In this document: positions 12,293-23,900 of the stretch, one piece after another
How positions within the stretch are numbered: the first letter of the stretch is position 1
How the letters are laid out: every line of letters begins with the position of its first letter
NCBI RefSeq assembly: GCF_009914755.1
Contig: NC_060933.1
Origin: the human T2T-CHM13v2.0 reference genome, Homo sapiens
Strand: one strand, 5' to 3'
DNA length: 64,000 bases
Notes under the pieces: model-generated
What the model was told of the DNA's origin: nothing
Databases searched by the model: none
Seen by the model: only the letters and a program-made list of their open reading frames with translations
Program-made: the position numbers and the translations under genes

Positions 12293-15200
12293 ATGACCGG
12301 ATCAAATTCACACATAACGACATTAACTTTGAATGTAAATGGGCTAAATGCTCCAATTAAAAGACACAGACTGGCAAATTGGATAGAAAGTCAAGACCCA
12401 TCAGTGTGGGGTGTTCAGGAAACCCATCTCACGTGCAGAGACAAACATAGGCTCAAAATAAAGGGATGGAGGAAGATCTACCAAGCAAATGGAAAACAGA
12501 AAAAGGCAGGGGTTGCAATCCTAGTCTCTTATAAAACAGACTTTAAACCAACAAAGATTAAAAGAGACTAAGAAAGTCATTACATAATGGTAAAGGGATC
12601 AATTCAACAAGAAGAGTTAACTATCCTAAATATGTATGCACCCAATACAGGAGCTCCCAGATTCATAAAGCAAGTCCTGAGTGGCCTACAAAGAGACTTA
12701 GACTCCCACACAATAATAATGGGAGACTTTAACACCCCACTGTCAACATTAGACAGATCAGCGAGACAGAAATTTAAGAAGGATATCCAGGAATTGAACT
12801 CAGCTCTGCACCAAGGGGACCTAATAGACATCTACAGAACTCTCCACCCCAAATCAACAGAATATACATTCTTTTCAGCACCACACCACACCTGTTCCAA
12901 AACTGACCACATAGCTCCAAGTAAAGCACTCCTCAGCAAATGTAAAAGAACAAAAATTATAACAGTCTCTCAGACCACAGTGAAATCAAACTAGAACTCA
13001 GGATTAAGAAACTCACTCAAAACCGCTCAACTACATGGAAACTGAACAACCTGCCCCTGAATGACTACTGGGTACATAACGAAATGAAGGCAGAAATAAA
13101 GATGTTCTTTGAAACCAACGAGAACAAAGACACAACATACCAGAATCTCTGGGACACATTCAAAGCAGTGTGTAGAGGGAAATTTATAGCACTAAATGCC
13201 CACAAGAGAAAGCAGGAAAGATATAAAATTGACACCCTAATGTCACAATTAAAAGAACTAGAGAAGCAAGAGCAAACACATTCAAAAGCTAGCAGGAGGC
13301 AAGAAATAACTAAGATCAGAGCAGACTGAAGGAAACAGAGACGCAAAACACCCTTCAAAAAATCAGTGAATCCAAGAGCTGGTTTTTTGAAAAGATCAAC
13401 AAAATAGATAGACCACTAGCAAGAGTAATAAAGAAGAAAAGAAAGAAGAATCAAATAGATGCAATAAAAAATGATAAAGAGGATATCACCACCGATCCCA
13501 CAGAAATACAAACTACCATCAGAGAATACTATAAACACCTCTACACAAATAAACTAGAAAATCTGGAATAAATGGATAAATTCCTCGACACATACATCCT
13601 CCCAAGACTAAACCAGGAAGAAGTTGAATCTCTGAATAGACCAATAACAGGCTCTGAAATTGAGGCAATAATCAATAGCTTATCAACCAAAAAAAGTCCA
13701 GGACCAGATGGATTCACAGCCAAATTCTACCAGAGGTACAAGGAGGAACTGGTACCATTCCTTCTGAAACTATTCCAATCGATAGAAAAAGAGGGAATCC
13801 TCCCTAACTCATTTTTTGAGGCCAGCGTCATCCTGATACCAAAGCCTGGCAGAGACAGAACCAAAAAGAGAATTTTAGACAAATATCCTTGATGAACCCT
13901 GATGCAACAATCCTCAGTAAAATACTGCCTAACCGAATCCAGCAGCACATCAAAAAGCTTATCCAACATGATGAAGTGGGCTTCATTCCTGGGATGCAAG
14001 TCTCGTTCAACATACGCAAATCAATAAATGTAATCCAGCATATAAACAGAACCAAAGACAAAAACGAAATGATTATCTCAATAGATGCAGAAAAGGCATT
14101 TGACAAAATTCAACAACACTTCATGCTAAAAACTCTCAATAAATTGGGTATTGATCAGACATATCTCAAAATAATAAGAGCTATCTATGACAAACCCACA
14201 GCTAATATCATACGGAATGGGTAAAAACTGGGAGCATTCCCTTTGAAAACTGGCACAAGACAGGGATGCCCTCTCTCACCACTCCTATTCAACATAGCAT
14301 TGGAATTTCTGGCAGGGCATTCAGGCAGGAGAAGGAAATAAAGGGTATTCAATTAGGAAAAGAGGAAGTCAAATTGTCCCTGTTTGCAGATGACATGATT
14401 GTATGTCTAGAAAATCCCATTGTCTCAGCCCCAAATCTCCTTAAGCTGATAAGCAACTTCAGCAAAGTCTCAGGATACAAAAATCAATGTACAAAAATCA
14501 CAAGAATTCTTATACACCAATAACAGACAGAGAGCCAAATCATGAGTGAGCTCCCATTCACAATTGCTTCAAAGAGAATAAAATACCTAGGAATCCAACT
14601 TACAAGGGATGTGAAGGACCTCTTCAAGGAGAACTACAAACCACTGCTCAATGAAATAAAAGAGGATACAAACAAATGGAAGAACATTCCATGCTCATGG
14701 GTAGGAAGAATCAATATTGTGAAAATGGCCATACTGCCCAAGGTAGTTTATAGATTCAATGCCATCCCCATCAAACTACCAACGCCTTTCTTCACAGAAT
14801 TGGAAAAAACTACTTTAAAGTTCATATGGAACCAAAAAAGAGCCTGCATCACCAAGTCAGTCCTAAGCCAAAAGAACAAAGCTGGATGCATCATGCTACC
14901 TGACTTCAAACCATACTACAAGGCTACAGTCACCAAAACAGCATGGTGCTGGTACCAAAACAGAGCTATACACCAATGGAACAGAACAGAGCCCTCAGAA
15001 ATAATGCTGCATATCTACAACCATCTGATCTTTGACAAACCTGACAAAAACAAGAAATGGGAATAGGATTCCGTATTGAATAAATGGTGCTGAGGAAACT
15101 GGCTAGCCATATGTACAAAGCTGAAAGTGGATCCCTTCCTTACACCTTATACAAAAATTAATTCAAGATGGATTAAAGACTTCGATGTTAGACCTAAAAC

Positions 15201-20989: not shown

Positions 20990-23900
20990 TCAATTCCCAC
21001 CTATGGGTGAGAATATGCGGTGTTTGGTTTTTTGTTCTTGCGATAGTTTACTGAGAATGATGATTTCCAATTTCATCCATGTCCCTACAAAGGATGTGAA
21101 TTCATCATTTTTTATGGCTGCATAGTATTCCATGGTGTATATGTGCCACATTTTCTTAATCCAGTCTATCATTGTTGGACATTTGGGTTGGTTCCAAGTC
21201 TTTGCTATCGTGAATAATGCCGCAATAAACATACGTGTGCATGTGTCTTTATAGCAGCATGATTTATAATCCTTTGGGTATATACCCAGTAATGGGATGG
21301 CTGGGTCAAATGGTATTTCTAGTTCTAGATCCCTGAGGAATCGCCACACTGACTTCCACAATGGTTGAACTAGTTTACAGTCCCACCAACAGTGTAAAAG
21401 TGTTCCTATTTCTCCACATCCTTCTCTAGCACCTGTTGTTTCCTGACTTTTTAATGACTGCCATTCTAACTGGTGTGAGATGGTATCTCATTGTGGTTTT
21501 GATTTGCATTTCTCTGATGGCCAGTGATGGTGAGCATTTTTTCATGTGTTTTTTGGCTGCATAAATGTCTTCTTTTGAGAAGTATCTGTTCATGTCCTTT
21601 GCCCACTTGTTGATGGGGTGGTTTGTTTTTTTCTTGTAAATGTGTTTGAGTTCATTGTAGATTCTGGATATTAGCCCTTTGTCAGATGAGTAGGTTGCGA
21701 AAATTTTCTCCCATTTTGTAGGTTGCCTGTTCACTCTGATGGTAGTTTCTTTTGCTGTGCAGAAGCTCTTTAGTTTAATTCGATGCCATTTGTCAATTTT
21801 GGCTTTGTTGCCATTGCTTTTGGTGTTTTAGACATGAAGTCCTTGCCCATGCCTATGTCCTGAATGGTAATGCCTAGGTTTTCTTCTAGGGTTTTTATGG
21901 TTTTAGGTCTAACGTTTAAGTCTTTAATCCATCTTGAATTGATTTTTGTATAAGGTGTAAGGAAGGGATCCAGTTTCAGCTTTCTACATATGGCTGGCCA
22001 ATTTTCCCAGCACCATTTATTAAATAGGGAATCCTTTCCCCATTTCTTGTTTTTGTCAGGTTTGTCAAAGATCAGATAGTTGTAGATATGCAGCGTTATT
22101 TCTGAGGGCTCTGTTCTGTTCCATGGATCTATATCTCTGTTTTGGTACCAGTACCATGCTGTTTTGGTGACTGTAGCCTTGTAGTATAGTTTGAAGTCAG
22201 GTAGCGTGATGCCTCCAGCTTTGTTCTTTTGGCTTAGGATTGACTTGGCGATGCGGGCTCTTTTTTGGTTCCATATGAACTTTAAAGTAGTTTTTTCCAA
22301 TTCTGTGAAGAAAGGCATTGGTAGCTTGATGGGGATGGCATTGAATCTGTAAATTACCTTGGGCAGTATGGCCATTTTCACAATATTGATTCTTCCTACC
22401 CATGAGCATGGAATGTTCTTCCATTTGTTTGTATCCTCTTTTATTTCATTGAGCAGTGGTTTGTAGTTCTCCTTGAAGAGGTCCTTCACATCCCTTGTAA
22501 GTTGGATTCCTAGGTATTTTATTCTCTTTGAAGCAATTGTGAATGGGGATTCACTCATGATTTGGCTCTCTGTTTGTCTGTTGTTGGTGTATAAGAATGC
22601 TTGTGATTTTTGCACATTGATTTTGTATCCTGAGACTTTGCTGAAGTTGCTTATCAGCTTAAGGAGATTTTGGGCTGAGACAATGGGGTTTTCTAGATAT
22701 ACAATCATGTCATCTGCAAACAGGGACAATTTGATTTCCTCTTTTCCTAACTGAATACCCTTTAGTTCCTTCTCCTGCCTGATTGCCCTGGCCAGAACTT
22801 CCAACACTATGTTGAATAGGAGTGGTGAGAGAAGGCATCCCTGTCTTGTGCCAGTTTTCAAAGGGAATGCTTCCAGTTTTTGCCCATTCTGTATGATATT
22901 GGCTGTGGGTTTGTCATAGATAGCTCTTATTATTTTGAGATACGTCCCATCAATACCGAGTTTATTAAGAGTTTTTAGCATGAAGTGTTGTTGAATTTTG
23001 TCAAAGGCCTTTTCTGCATCTATTGAGATAATTATGTGGTTTTTGTCTTTGGCTGTGTTTATATGCTGTGTTACATTTATTGATTTGCGTATATTGAACC
23101 AGCCTTGCATCCCAGGGATGAAGCCCACTTGATCATGGTGGATAAGCTTTTTGATGTGCTGCTGGATTCGGTTTGCCAGTATTTTATTGAGGATTTTTGC
23201 ATCAATGTTCATCAAGGATATTGGTCTAAAATTCTCTTTTTTGGTTGTGTATTTGCCTAGCTTTGGTATCAGAATGATGCTGGCCTCATAAAATGAATTA
23301 GAGAGGATTCCCTCTTTTTCTATTGATTGGAATAGTTTCAGAAGGAATGGTACCAGTTCCTCCTTGTACCTCTGGTAGAATTTGGCTGTGAATCCGTCTG
23401 GTCCTGGACTCTTTTTGGTTGGTAAGCTATTGATTATTGCCACAATTTCAGAACCTGTTATTGGTCTATTCAGAGATTCAACTTCTTCCTGGTTTAGTCT
23501 TGGGAGAGTGTATGTGTCCAGGAATTTATCCATTTATTCTAGATTTTGTAGTTTATTTGCGTAGAGGTGTTTGTAGTATTCTCTGATGGTAGTTTGTATT
23601 TCTGTGGGATCGGTGGTGATATCCCCTTTATCATTTTTTATTGCATCTATTTGATTCTTCCCTCTTTTTTTCTGTATTAGTCTTGCTAGTGGTCTATCAA
23701 TTTTGTTGATCCTTTCAGAAAACCAGCTCCTGGATTCATTGATTTTTTGAAGGGTTTTTTGTGTCTCTATTTCCTTCAGTTCTGCTCTGATCTTAGTTAT
23801 TTCTTGCCTTCTGCTAGCTTTTGAATGTGTTTGCTCTTGCTTTTCTAGTTCTTTTAATTGTGATGTTAGGGTGTCAATTTTGGATCTTTCCTGCTTTCTC

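What the first reader, a model, noticed from the sequence alone, without database searches (positions are those of the whole stretch)
13569..23536. Two independent, inverted L1s share the same two ORF2 nonsense codons
Seen: L1-A (+) and L1-B (-) have different TSDs and different 5' UTR types. Both carry GAA>TAA at ORF2 codon 428 (13569-13571 and 23534-23536) and TGG>TAG after NNRC (15668-15670 and 21426-21428). They also share three non-CpG A>C changes (14785/22315, 14931/22169, 15459/21642). L1-C has the usual base at all five sites. Established: L1 proteins act mainly in cis, so stop codons are not expected as subfamily characters. Inference: non-allelic gene conversion between the tail-to-tail copies, 4.4 kb apart, moved inactivating mutations from one to the other.
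Basis: partly seen in the sequence, partly recalled or inferred. Interest (0 to 1): 0.8.

Follow-up and report, generated by a model that had tools for sequence, protein, structure and literature searches.

The report
Neighbouring L1 fossils share rare mutations
Two dead, independently inserted L1 retrotransposons 4.4 kb apart do carry the same two stop codons, but not through one copied block; two of their shared variants also occur in other L1 copies of the same 370-kb neighbourhood, which hints at patchy local sequence exchange.

Summary
L1-A (+) and L1-B (-) are full-length and tail-to-tail, with different target-site duplications and a 128-bp 5'UTR difference. Both carry TAA at ORF2 codon 428, TAG after NNRC and three A>C changes; L1-C has none.

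None of the five is a subfamily character. Exact-word counts in this genome are TAA 103 against 7,932 GAA, TAG 348 against 15,203 TGG, and 879, 217 and 139 places for the three C alleles.

A single A-to-B conversion tract is excluded. A and B are 93.5% identical. Between the two stops they differ at 115 substitutions, 29 of them with both states common in other copies. The cleanest island, 239 nt around TAG, is matched as well or better at four unlinked loci. An unlinked pair also shares two nonsense codons.

Unexpectedly, two A>C alleles cluster regionally genome-wide. Six independent L1 insertions within 370 kb around the window carry 15459C, and five of them carry TAG. That combination was found in 0 of 42 other 15459C copies.

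My best reading (about 0.45) is repeated short-patch non-allelic conversion among neighbouring L1s. Coincidence (about 0.25) is not excluded, especially for TAA.

The parts
10188..16319 (+). L1-A: full-length, heavily decayed L1PA copy of the older type that keeps the 128-bp 5'UTR segment. It differs from the panel majority at 4.6% of sites and has 6 positional nonsense codons in ORF2.
   Evidence: The 5' start GGAGGAGCCAAGATGG and the A-rich tail are read directly.
10174..10187 (+). Target-site duplication of L1-A, upstream copy (AAAATACCAAAAGC). The downstream copy is at 16320-16333.
   Evidence: read directly.
20755..26801 (-). L1-B: full-length L1PA copy of the younger type that lacks the 128-bp 5'UTR segment. 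It differs from the panel majority at 2.8% of sites. ORF1 is 304 aa. ORF2 is open for 427 codons (endonuclease part), then TAA, then 587 codons (reverse transcriptase part).
   Evidence: One search gives the Pfam matches: Exo_endo_phos, RVT_1, Transposase_22.
26802..26813 (-). Target-site duplication of L1-B, upstream copy (AAAGACAGGTCA). The downstream copy is at 20743-20754.
   Evidence: read directly.
13569..13571 (+). TAA in L1-A at the position of ORF2 codon 428 (GAA in most copies). The partner in L1-B is 23534-23536 (-).
   Evidence: Genome-wide there are 103 TAA words against 7,932 GAA words.
15668..15670 (+). TAG in L1-A (TGG in most copies), after NNRC in the cysteine-rich C-terminal part of ORF2. 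The partner in L1-B is 21426-21428 (-).
   Evidence: Genome-wide there are 348 TAG words against 15,203 TGG words. TAG is also present in three neighbours outside the window, L059, L060 and L062.
14785..14785 (+). A>C shared with B (22315). This is an ordinary L1PA polymorphism.
   Evidence: 7 of 29 panel copies carry it. The word with B's flanks occurs at 879 places, and its regional clustering is near background.
14931..14931 (+). A>C shared with B (22169). Rare and strongly clustered by region.
   Evidence: 217 places. 26 of 91 adjacent gaps are <= 200 kb. 2 of 29 panel copies carry it.
15459..15459 (+). A>C shared with B (21642). Rare and strongly clustered by region. Six carriers lie in C9:1.565-1.934 Mb.
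   Evidence: 139 places. 27 of 88 adjacent gaps are <= 200 kb. The neighbours were read.
15886..15886 (+). A further A>G shared only by A and B (21209) among the 36 aligned copies.
   Evidence: It occurs at 309 places genome-wide and clusters only weakly.
35187..41277 (-). L1-C: the third full-length L1PA in the window. It is of an older type, differs from the panel majority at 5.7% of sites, and has the usual base at all five sites.

Best explanation
A and B are two long-dead L1PA copies that inserted separately. A belongs to an older lineage that keeps the 128-bp 5'UTR segment. B belongs to a younger lineage that has lost it. Their shared variants form a patchwork with more than one origin.

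- 14785C is an ordinary polymorphism of the L1PA source population.
- 15459C and the TAG stop belong to a small pool of rare alleles shared by at least six independently inserted L1 copies in a 370-kb stretch of 9p around the window. I think these alleles spread after insertion by repeated, very short (tens of bases) non-allelic gene conversions between L1 copies in the same chromosomal neighbourhood. Closely spaced markers were sometimes co-transferred.
- TAA, 14931C, 15886G and 15512T are shared, within this region, only by A and B. They may be products of the same process at the shortest range (4.4 kb, inverted orientation).

Shown: the alleles, their genome-wide counts, their regional clustering, the independence of the insertions, and the absence of a long tract. 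Inferred: that conversion is the process, and its direction and timing. The stops have no functional meaning today, because both elements carry other lesions.
For: 1. Regional pool. 15459C occurs at 139 places genome-wide, six of them in C9:1.565-1.934 Mb. The four copies outside the window were fetched and read. L059, L060 and L062 carry both 15459C and TAG; L061 carries 15459C only.

2. Independent insertions. The four have their own A-tails and unrelated 3' flanks.

3. The combination is local. 0 of 42 other 15459C places and 0 of 100 other TAG places show the two alleles together. A search with B's 246-nt stretch found no cleaner carrier among the 40 of 3,175 candidates that were scored.

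4. More local sharing. The four neighbours share further alleles that are absent from all 36 aligned copies: 14801G in 3, 15130C in 3, 15750T in 3, and 14745C, 14843T and 15803C in 2 each. Every pair has its own shared alleles, so no tree fits. The word holding 15114G and 15130C occurs at 6 places in the genome, 3 of them in C9:1.756-1.935 Mb. The 3 unlinked carriers have none of the other local alleles.

5. Generality. With the sites used for picking copies excluded, pairs within a region share 0.86 alleles absent from 34 reference copies, against 0.11 for pairs between regions (22 and 83 pairs; Mann-Whitney p about 1e-8, though the pairs are not independent).

6. Clustering by allele. Adjacent carriers lie <= 200 kb apart in 27 of 88 gaps for 15459C and 26 of 91 for 14931C. 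The figures are 14 of 98 for the common 14785C and 6 of 94 for 15886G.

7. Co-transfer of close markers. 15114G and 15130C are 16 nt apart. 15459C and 15478A are 19 nt apart in L067 and L068.

8. Literature. Passages of PMC8230782 and PMC6598467 report non-allelic conversion between neighbouring Alu elements, mostly within about 10 kb and falling with distance.
Against: - No tract is visible between A and B. They are 93.5% identical (5,607 of 5,996 columns). There are 115 substitutions between the two stops, and the identical runs around the five sites are only 20-70 nt.
- In the 1.25 kb examined, neighbouring copies are no closer overall than unlinked ones. B to L059 and L060 is 3.4-3.5%, while B to the unlinked L012 and L026 is 2.2-2.8%. 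Any exchange therefore touched single sites or very short patches.
- The distances involved (24-370 kb) are far beyond the roughly 10 kb reported for Alu.
- The same alleles (14931C, 15459C, TAG) recur in different pairwise combinations in several regions: C2:209 Mb, C3:43.5 Mb, C4:75.8 Mb and C5:21.4 Mb. That is what site-specific recurrent mutation would also give.
- The regionally shared alleles are rich in A:T>C:G changes, which suggests a mutational bias.
- TAA is not clearly clustered: 3 of 80 gaps are <= 200 kb, and one of those is A-B itself. Its carriers span many L1 ages; 19 of the 20 read are 74-94% identical to A, and the 20th, L049, is a rearranged copy that aligns only in part, at 59%.
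- A-B rare-allele sharing is ordinary once normalised.
- The four C9 neighbours were chosen because they carry 15459C. I could not count how many local L1 copies lack it; L1-C, 12 kb from B, does lack it.
Confidence: 0.45

Rival explanations
1. Coincidence. A and B decayed independently. The five shared variants are parallel mutations plus ordinary polymorphisms of the L1 source population, noticed because the reader looked for shared stops. The regional clustering has an unrelated cause.
For: - Every variant recurs at unlinked loci: 101 other TAA places, 346 other TAG places, and 879, 217 and 139 places for the C alleles (the last two counts include A and B).
- TAA carriers belong to many L1 ages, and none of the 20 read carries the A/B allele at all three A>C sites. 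L049, a rearranged copy misaligned there, shows C at 15459.
- After normalisation, A-B ranks 44-121 of 496 pairs for rare-allele sharing.
- The unlinked pair L012-L031 also shares two nonsense codons, and 18 pairs share one.
- Seven copies share more of A's derived alleles than B does.
- The 239-nt stretch around TAG has an identical copy on C8 and three more unlinked matches that outscore B.
Against: - From the word frequencies, a given copy carries both stops with probability about 0.0128 x 0.0224 = 3e-4. B has only two positional nonsense codons, and both are A's.
- Inside the listed ranges, A and B are the only TAA carriers that also have 14931C (2 of 58) or 15459C (2 of 71), and no other TAA carrier has TAG (0 of 31).
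- Chance does not explain five carriers of 15459C plus TAG within 370 kb when there are none elsewhere.
Confidence: 0.25
2. Region- and site-specific recurrent mutation. A few positions in L1PA ORF2 are hypermutable, mostly A:T>C:G, in certain chromosomal domains. Several copies in such a domain therefore acquire the same change independently.
For: - The same alleles (14931C, 15459C, TAG) turn up in different combinations in several separate regions.
- Changes are isolated single sites on different backgrounds, with no flanking markers transferred.
- The local alleles are rich in A>C and T>G: 14745C, 14801G, 15114G, 15699G, 14931C and 15459C.
- All ten carriers in C2:209.14-209.71 Mb lie on the + strand.
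Against: - Different regions have different private alleles. 15699G is in 4 of 5 copies at C2:209 Mb and in none of the C9 copies, while 14801G, 15130C and 15750T occur only in C9.
- Near-saturation of single sites in one region, against about 1% genome-wide, would need an extraordinary rate.
- Closely spaced rare alleles travel together.
- A test for templating from elsewhere in the element found nothing.
- No common sequence context is visible by reading the sites.
Confidence: 0.12
3. Local lineage. A defective L1 carrying TAG and 15459C resided in this part of 9p. Its transcripts were mobilised in trans and, for an unknown reason, inserted preferentially nearby. On this view the stops are true lineage characters of a small regional family.
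For: - The six copies have their own tails, flanks and, for A and B, target-site duplications.
- Allele sets are partly nested: 15459C alone, then with 14931C, then with 15699G.
- 15114G plus 15130C marks a small dispersed lineage on an old background, to which L061 and L062 fit.
Against: - L1 is not known to reinsert near its source (recalled, not checked here).
- The six copies fall into two ages and backgrounds: divergence is 2.0-2.4% for B, L059 and L060, and 3.6-4.1% for A, L061 and L062.
- Allele sharing among L059-L062 fits no tree.
- A and B differ at 29 sites where both states are common elsewhere.
Confidence: 0.1
4. One reading: one non-allelic conversion tract of about 2.1 kb between A and B carried all five variants across.
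For: The copies are 4.4 kb apart and inverted, and all five variants lie within 2.1 kb.
Against: There are 115 substitutions and 13 gap columns between the stops, 29 of the substitutions with both states in at least 3 other copies. In sliding 600-nt windows between the two stops, A-B distance ranges from 2.5% to 8.2%, and B is the nearest copy to A in only 7 of 27 windows, by small margins.
Confidence: 0.02
5. Assembly or polishing artefact: reads from one L1 were used to correct its neighbours.
For: None found. The idea is considered only because the shared alleles are local.
Against: The copies differ by 3-7%, which is ample for unique placement of long reads. The shared alleles are isolated single bases within otherwise distinct sequence, and the same pattern occurs in several regions. 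Raw reads could not be examined here.
Confidence: 0.03

Closest known systems
Non-allelic (interlocus) gene conversion between neighbouring Alu elements (Aleshin and Zhi 2010, as described in passages of PMC8230782 and PMC6598467; the original paper is not held)
   Same: Dispersed, independently inserted retrotransposon copies share non-diagnostic mutations more often when they lie close together. The resulting patterns are mosaic and do not fit a tree.
   Different: The elements here are L1, not Alu. The shared patches are single sites or less than about 100 nt. Sharing reaches 24-370 kb, not about 10 kb. Overall divergence between neighbours is not reduced. I did not run the controlled genome-wide distance analysis that the Alu work rests on.
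Spread of mutations among dispersed TE copies by non-allelic conversion, for example the ISX elements on the Drosophila neo-X (PMC4384637; search listing and abstract only)
   Same: Point mutations move between dispersed copies of one element family on one chromosome.
   Different: That case involves selection for better binding sites. Here the alleles include stop codons in dead elements, and no selection is apparent.
Subfamily-diagnostic substitutions of L1PA lineages
   Same: 14785C behaves like an ordinary polymorphism of the source population: 879 places, 7 of 29 panel copies, and near-background clustering.
   Different: TAA, TAG, 14931C and 15459C are each carried by only about 1-2% of matching copies and are not linked genome-wide.
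CpG-driven parallel nonsense mutations in decayed L1 copies
   Same: Independent copies do acquire the same stop. CGA>TGA at A-coordinate 15752 is in 7 of the 36 aligned copies, and the one at 13934 is in 4.
   Different: Neither shared stop of A and B is at a CpG: one is GAA>TAA and the other TGG>TAG.

Membership tests
Full-length L1 (LINE-1, L1PA group) insertion | Target-site duplication flanking the element, and a 3' A-rich tail | tested here: met
   A has a 14-nt duplication and B a 12-nt duplication, each next to an A-rich tail.
Full-length L1 (LINE-1, L1PA group) insertion | ORF1 with L1 RNA-binding domains, and ORF2 with endonuclease and reverse transcriptase domains | tested here: met
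   The pieces of B match Transposase_22, Tnp_22_dsRBD and Tnp_22_trimer (ORF1), Exo_endo_phos (427-aa piece) and RVT_1 (587-aa piece). A was placed by 93.5% nucleotide identity to B.
Full-length L1 (LINE-1, L1PA group) insertion | Assignment to a named L1PA subfamily by diagnostic positions | not testable with these tools
   No Dfam or RepeatMasker library is on hand. I can only say that A and C share many derived alleles and keep the 128-bp 5'UTR segment that B lacks. Equating this with the 129-bp ZNF93-site deletion of L1PA3 (passages of PMC7110667) is an inference from size and place in the 5'UTR.
Non-allelic gene conversion between A and B | A contiguous tract in which the acceptor carries the donor's alleles at several consecutive informative sites | tested here: not met
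   29 differences with both states common elsewhere lie between the stops, and the islands are at most 40-381 nt. The longest concordant run is 15646-15876, and it has equal or better unlinked matches.
Non-allelic gene conversion between A and B | Donor and acceptor are each other's closest relatives within the tract but not outside it | tested here: inconclusive
   B is nearest to A in 7 of 27 sliding windows, by small margins. In 15639-15877, A and B are nearest to each other among the aligned copies but not genome-wide.
Non-allelic gene conversion between A and B | The orthologous element in an outgroup species lacks the transferred allele | not testable with these tools
Regional non-allelic conversion among L1 copies | Excess sharing of rare, non-diagnostic alleles between physically close, independently inserted copies | tested here: met
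   0.86 against 0.11 shared alleles per pair. Clustering of 15459C and 14931C carriers. Unique flanks. Caveat: the copies were picked through one shared allele, and the sample covers three regions only.
Regional non-allelic conversion among L1 copies | Mosaic sharing that is incompatible with a tree | tested here: met
   Each pair among L059-L062 has its own shared rare alleles.
L1 subfamily character (the stops inherited from a common source) | The variant is present in most members of a lineage and linked to that lineage's other markers | tested here: not met
   TAA is at 1.3% and TAG at 2.2% of matching words. TAA with TAG is 0 of 31 outside A and B. TAA carriers come from many backgrounds.

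The most novel reading that the evidence does not exclude
L1 copies lying in the same chromosomal neighbourhood (tens to hundreds of kb, roughly domain scale) exchange very short patches of sequence over evolutionary time, by ectopic repair or perhaps by repair templated on local L1 transcripts. Rare point mutations, including stop codons, would then spread through a local population of otherwise unrelated L1 fossils. If this is general, divergence-based ages and 'private' mutations of L1 copies are not fully independent, and dispersed repeats would record which parts of a chromosome have met during repair in the germ line.
Probability: 0.35. Interest if true: 0.75.

Novelty: new variant of a known kind. 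Interest (0 to 1): 0.55.

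Why it matters
The two shared stops are of little consequence in themselves, because both elements are long dead. The value lies in what the check uncovered: certain rare L1 variants are strongly clustered along chromosomes, and the L1 copies around this window share a private pool of alleles despite separate insertions.

If that reflects patchy non-allelic conversion over 10-400 kb, three things follow.
- A process documented for neighbouring Alu elements would extend to L1 and to a much longer range.
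- L1 decay would not be strictly copy-by-copy, which matters for dating and for subfamily calls.
- There would be a sequence-only way to ask where ectopic repair has happened in the germ line.

If it instead reflects region- and site-specific mutation, it points to an undescribed mutational process rich in A:T>C:G changes. Either answer can be tested with existing complete ape assemblies and human pangenomes.

Tried and rejected
1. One long A-B tract: rejected.

2. A recent 239-nt tract around TAG. It looked promising: it is the longest concordant run, with p <= 0.002 uncorrected, and A has only 2 derived alleles there against a mean of 10.4 per window. It was rejected as specific evidence because an unlinked copy is identical and three more outscore B.

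3. A large TAA lineage: rejected. 19 of the 20 carriers read are 74-94% identical to A; the 20th, L049, is a rearranged copy that aligns only in part (59%). None carries the A/B allele at all three A>C sites, and only one, an old copy, has TAG.

4. A genome-wide lineage carrying TAG with 14931C. The panel showed complete linkage (L012 and L026), but the panel was chosen for likeness to A. In unbiased lists only 3 of 43 and 3 of 100 places combine the two alleles.

5. Segmental duplication as the source of the C9 cluster: rejected, because the 3' flanks are unrelated.

6. L067 and L074 as old copies holding a young converted patch: rejected. They are simply 5'-truncated young copies, and the high divergence came from non-L1 flank.

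7. Templated mutation from elsewhere in the element: no support.

I used single-site words and cross-referenced coordinates instead. The lists show only the first 100 places each, so co-occurrence is known only for parts of the genome (ranges given).

11. Searches for L1-to-L1 conversion or regional sharing listed nothing that describes long-range sharing of rare alleles among L1 copies. That covers three searches of the held library only, not all of the literature.

Full report
**What is there**

The window holds three full-length L1PA elements.
- L1-A lies on the + strand at about 10188-16319. It is flanked by AAAATACCAAAAGC at 10174-10187 and 16320-16333.
- L1-B lies on the - strand at about 20755-26801. 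It is flanked by AAAGACAGGTCA at 26813-26802 and 20754-20743.
- L1-C lies on the - strand at about 35187-41277.

A and B are therefore separate insertions, tail to tail, with 4.4 kb between their 3' ends. B lacks 128 bp of 5'UTR that A and C have (A 10957-11085). By size and place this looks like the 129-bp deletion that, according to passages of PMC7110667, became fixed in L1PA3 and later lineages. That equation is my inference.

B is the better preserved copy. ORF1 is 304 aa. ORF2 is open for exactly 427 codons from its ATG to the TAA. A further 587 codons are open after it. The Pfam domains are the expected ones. A is broken in many places.

Measured against the majority of 29 unlinked copies, A differs at 4.6% of sites, B at 2.8% and C at 5.7%. 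A shares many more derived alleles with C (52) and with six unlinked copies (30-39) than with B (25). A and B thus belong to different L1PA lineages.

**The observation**

There is also a sixth allele, 15886G, shared by A and B alone among the 36 aligned copies. In the 1,216 ORF2 codons that could be scored, A has 6 positional nonsense codons. B has 2, and both of them are shared with A.

**How common the variants are**

Exact-word counts in the window's own genome:

| Variant | Places with variant | Comparison |
|---|---|---|
| TAA (codon 428) | 103 | 7,932 GAA (1.3%) |
| TAG (after NNRC) | 348 | 15,203 TGG (2.2%) |
| 14785C (B's flanks) | 879 | - |
| 14931C | 217 | - |
| 15459C | 139 | - |
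| 15886G | 309 | - |

In a panel of 29 unlinked copies, which chose for likeness to A and which is therefore biased towards A's alleles, the counts are as follows.
- 14785C: 7 copies.
- 14931C: 2 copies.
- 15459C: 3 copies.
- TAG: 2 copies.
- TAA: 0 of the 27 copies that cover the site.

Twenty TAA carriers were fetched. Nineteen are 74-94% identical to A; the twentieth, L049, is a rearranged copy that aligns only in part (59%). None carries the A/B allele at all three A>C sites, and only one, an old copy, has TAG. TAA is therefore a recurrent mutation across many L1 ages, and none of the five variants is a subfamily character.

**Is there an A-B conversion tract?**

No.
- Over the element, A and B are identical at 5,607 of 5,996 aligned columns (93.5%), the same as A against unrelated copies.
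- Strictly between the two stops they differ at 115 substitutions and 13 gap columns. At 29 of the substitutions both states are carried by at least 3 other copies, which marks them as differences present at insertion.
- The identical runs around the five sites are 20, 61, 35, 70 and 33 nt. Even if private differences are ignored, the islands are at most 40, 93, 78, 70 and 381 nt.

A GENECONV-style test found one long concordant run, 15646-15876, with permutation p <= 0.002 before any correction. A has only 2 derived alleles there, against a mean of 10.4 per window of that size.

A genome search with that 239-nt stretch then weakened this evidence.
- The copy at C8:82.94 Mb is identical (432 bits).
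- Three more unlinked copies score 427 bits.
- B scores 425 bits.

Only 40 of 851 candidates were scored in that search, so there may be more such copies.

Pair statistics point the same way. A-B ranks 44-121 of 496 pairs for rare-allele sharing once the number of derived alleles is taken into account. The unlinked pair L012-L031 also shares two nonsense codons.

**The unexpected part**

The lists of carriers are not spread evenly along the chromosomes. The table gives the share of adjacent carriers on the same chromosome that lie <= 200 kb apart.

| Variant | Gaps <= 200 kb | Share |
|---|---|---|
| 15459C | 27 of 88 | 31% |
| 14931C | 26 of 91 | 29% |
| TAG | 12 of 96 | 12% |
| 14785C | 14 of 98 | 14% |
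| 15886G | 6 of 94 | 6% |
| TAA | 3 of 80 (one is A-B) | 4% |

A rough expectation for a random sample of copies is 1-7%, depending on allele frequency. That estimate rests on L1 density in C1:0-49 Mb only, and it uses the TGG+TAG count as the denominator for the other sites. The common 14785C and 15886G probably give the better empirical baseline.

Around the window, 15459C is carried by A, B and four more copies at C9:1.695, 1.757, 1.781 and 1.934 Mb. I fetched 1.25 kb of each.
- Three of them (L059, L060, L062) also carry TAG.
- All four have their own A-tails and unrelated 3' flanks, so they are separate insertions.
- They fall into two ages and backgrounds.

Outside this region the combination was not seen. 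None of the 42 other 15459C places inside the range of the TAG list has TAG within 3 kb. None of the 100 listed TAG places has 15459C.

The four neighbours share further alleles that none of the 36 aligned copies has: 14801G, 15130C, 15750T, 14745C, 14843T and 15803C. The combinations differ from pair to pair, so no tree fits. The word holding 15114G and 15130C occurs six times in the genome, three of them here. The three unlinked carriers have none of the other local alleles.

Two other clusters behave alike. At C2:209.14-209.71 Mb, four copies on different backgrounds share 14931C, 15459C and 15699G; 15699G is absent from all reference copies and from the C9 copies. With the sites used for picking copies left out, pairs within a region share 0.86 alleles absent from 34 reference copies, against 0.11 for pairs from different regions (22 and 83 pairs; p about 1e-8, with non-independent pairs).

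**Reading**

The simplest account of alleles that are identical, rare and local is exchange after insertion. These alleles sit on unrelated backgrounds, are sometimes co-transferred over 16-19 nt, and do not fit a tree. Short-patch non-allelic gene conversion among L1 copies of one neighbourhood would produce that pattern.

The process is documented for neighbouring Alu elements, mostly within about 10 kb (passages of PMC8230782 and PMC6598467). A and B, 4.4 kb apart, share the most, which would fit a dependence on distance.

I hold this at about 0.45, for four reasons.
- No tract is visible, and neighbours are not closer overall than unlinked copies.
- The range is far beyond what is described.
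- The same three alleles recur in different pairings in several regions.
- The local alleles are rich in A:T>C:G changes.

The last two points are what a region- and site-specific mutational process would give (about 0.12). A test for templating within the element was negative. A local family spread from a defective source (about 0.10) fits the separate insertions but not the two ages or the mosaic sharing. Plain coincidence (about 0.25) remains a fair account of the A-B pair on its own, and especially of TAA. It does not explain the regional pool.

**Limits**

- Lists show the first 100 places per word, so co-occurrence is known for parts of the genome only (ranges).
- Exact words miss carriers with a mutated flank.
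- The neighbours were picked through 15459C, and I could not count the local copies that lack it.
- The panel is biased towards A.
- No subfamily library, ape assemblies, population data or raw reads were available.
- Three literature searches listed no description of long-range sharing of rare alleles among L1 copies. That covers the held library only.

Noticed in passing
window 26026-26027 (B) against 10957-11085 (A): B lacks 128 bp of 5'UTR that A and C have. By size and place this is probably the 129-bp ZNF93-evasion deletion of L1PA3 and younger lineages (passages of PMC7110667). If so, A and C predate it and B follows it.
   Followed up: partly
G000 C2:209.14-209.71 Mb (loci L070-L074): At least ten L1 copies within 570 kb, all on the + strand, carry 14931C and/or 15459C. 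Four of the five read also share 15699G, which is absent from 34 reference copies. The uniform orientation is unexplained.
   Followed up: partly
G000 C9:1.756, 1.781 and 1.934 Mb; C4:133.95 Mb; C6:129.87 Mb; C18:3.02 Mb (loci L060-L062, L075-L077): The 34-nt word holding 15114G and 15130C occurs only six times in the genome. The three unlinked carriers sit on the same older background as L061 and L062, which suggests a very small dispersed L1 lineage with half of its detectable members in one 180-kb stretch.
   Followed up: partly
loci L012 (C10:91.04 Mb) and L031 (C6:1.29 Mb): Two unlinked L1 copies share two nonsense codons: TGC>TGA at A-coordinate 14692 and the CpG change CGA>TGA at 15752. 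This is a useful control for how often such coincidences arise.
   Followed up: yes
A-coordinates 15752 and 13934 in the 36-copy alignment: CGA>TGA nonsense changes at CpG sites recur in 7 and 4 of the 36 copies. They are the commonest shared stops among decayed L1PA copies.
   Followed up: no
loci L050 and L051 (C2:89.17 and 90.57 Mb): Two TAA carriers have the same internal deletion and the same alignment breakpoints. They are probably copies of one insertion made by a pericentromeric duplication, not independent TAA events.
   Followed up: no
locus L065 (C9:1.7797-1.7805 Mb): An Alu-like sequence (GGCCGGGCGCGGTGGCTCACGCCTGTAATCCCAGC...) sits directly after the A-tail of the L1 copy L061.
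   Followed up: no
G000 C3:43.50-43.70 Mb and C4:75.82-76.25 Mb: These are further small clusters in which 14931C and TAG occur in neighbouring L1 copies. At C3, L026 carries both, one neighbour carries 14931C and another carries TAG. At C4, two copies carry both and two more carry one each. Seen only from coordinates; the sequences were not read.
   Followed up: no
window 21424 (B), A-coordinate 15672: B has a private 1-nt insertion three bases after the shared TAG, which A lacks. If TAG was transferred, the insertion is younger than the transfer, or the patch ended within 3 nt.
   Followed up: no
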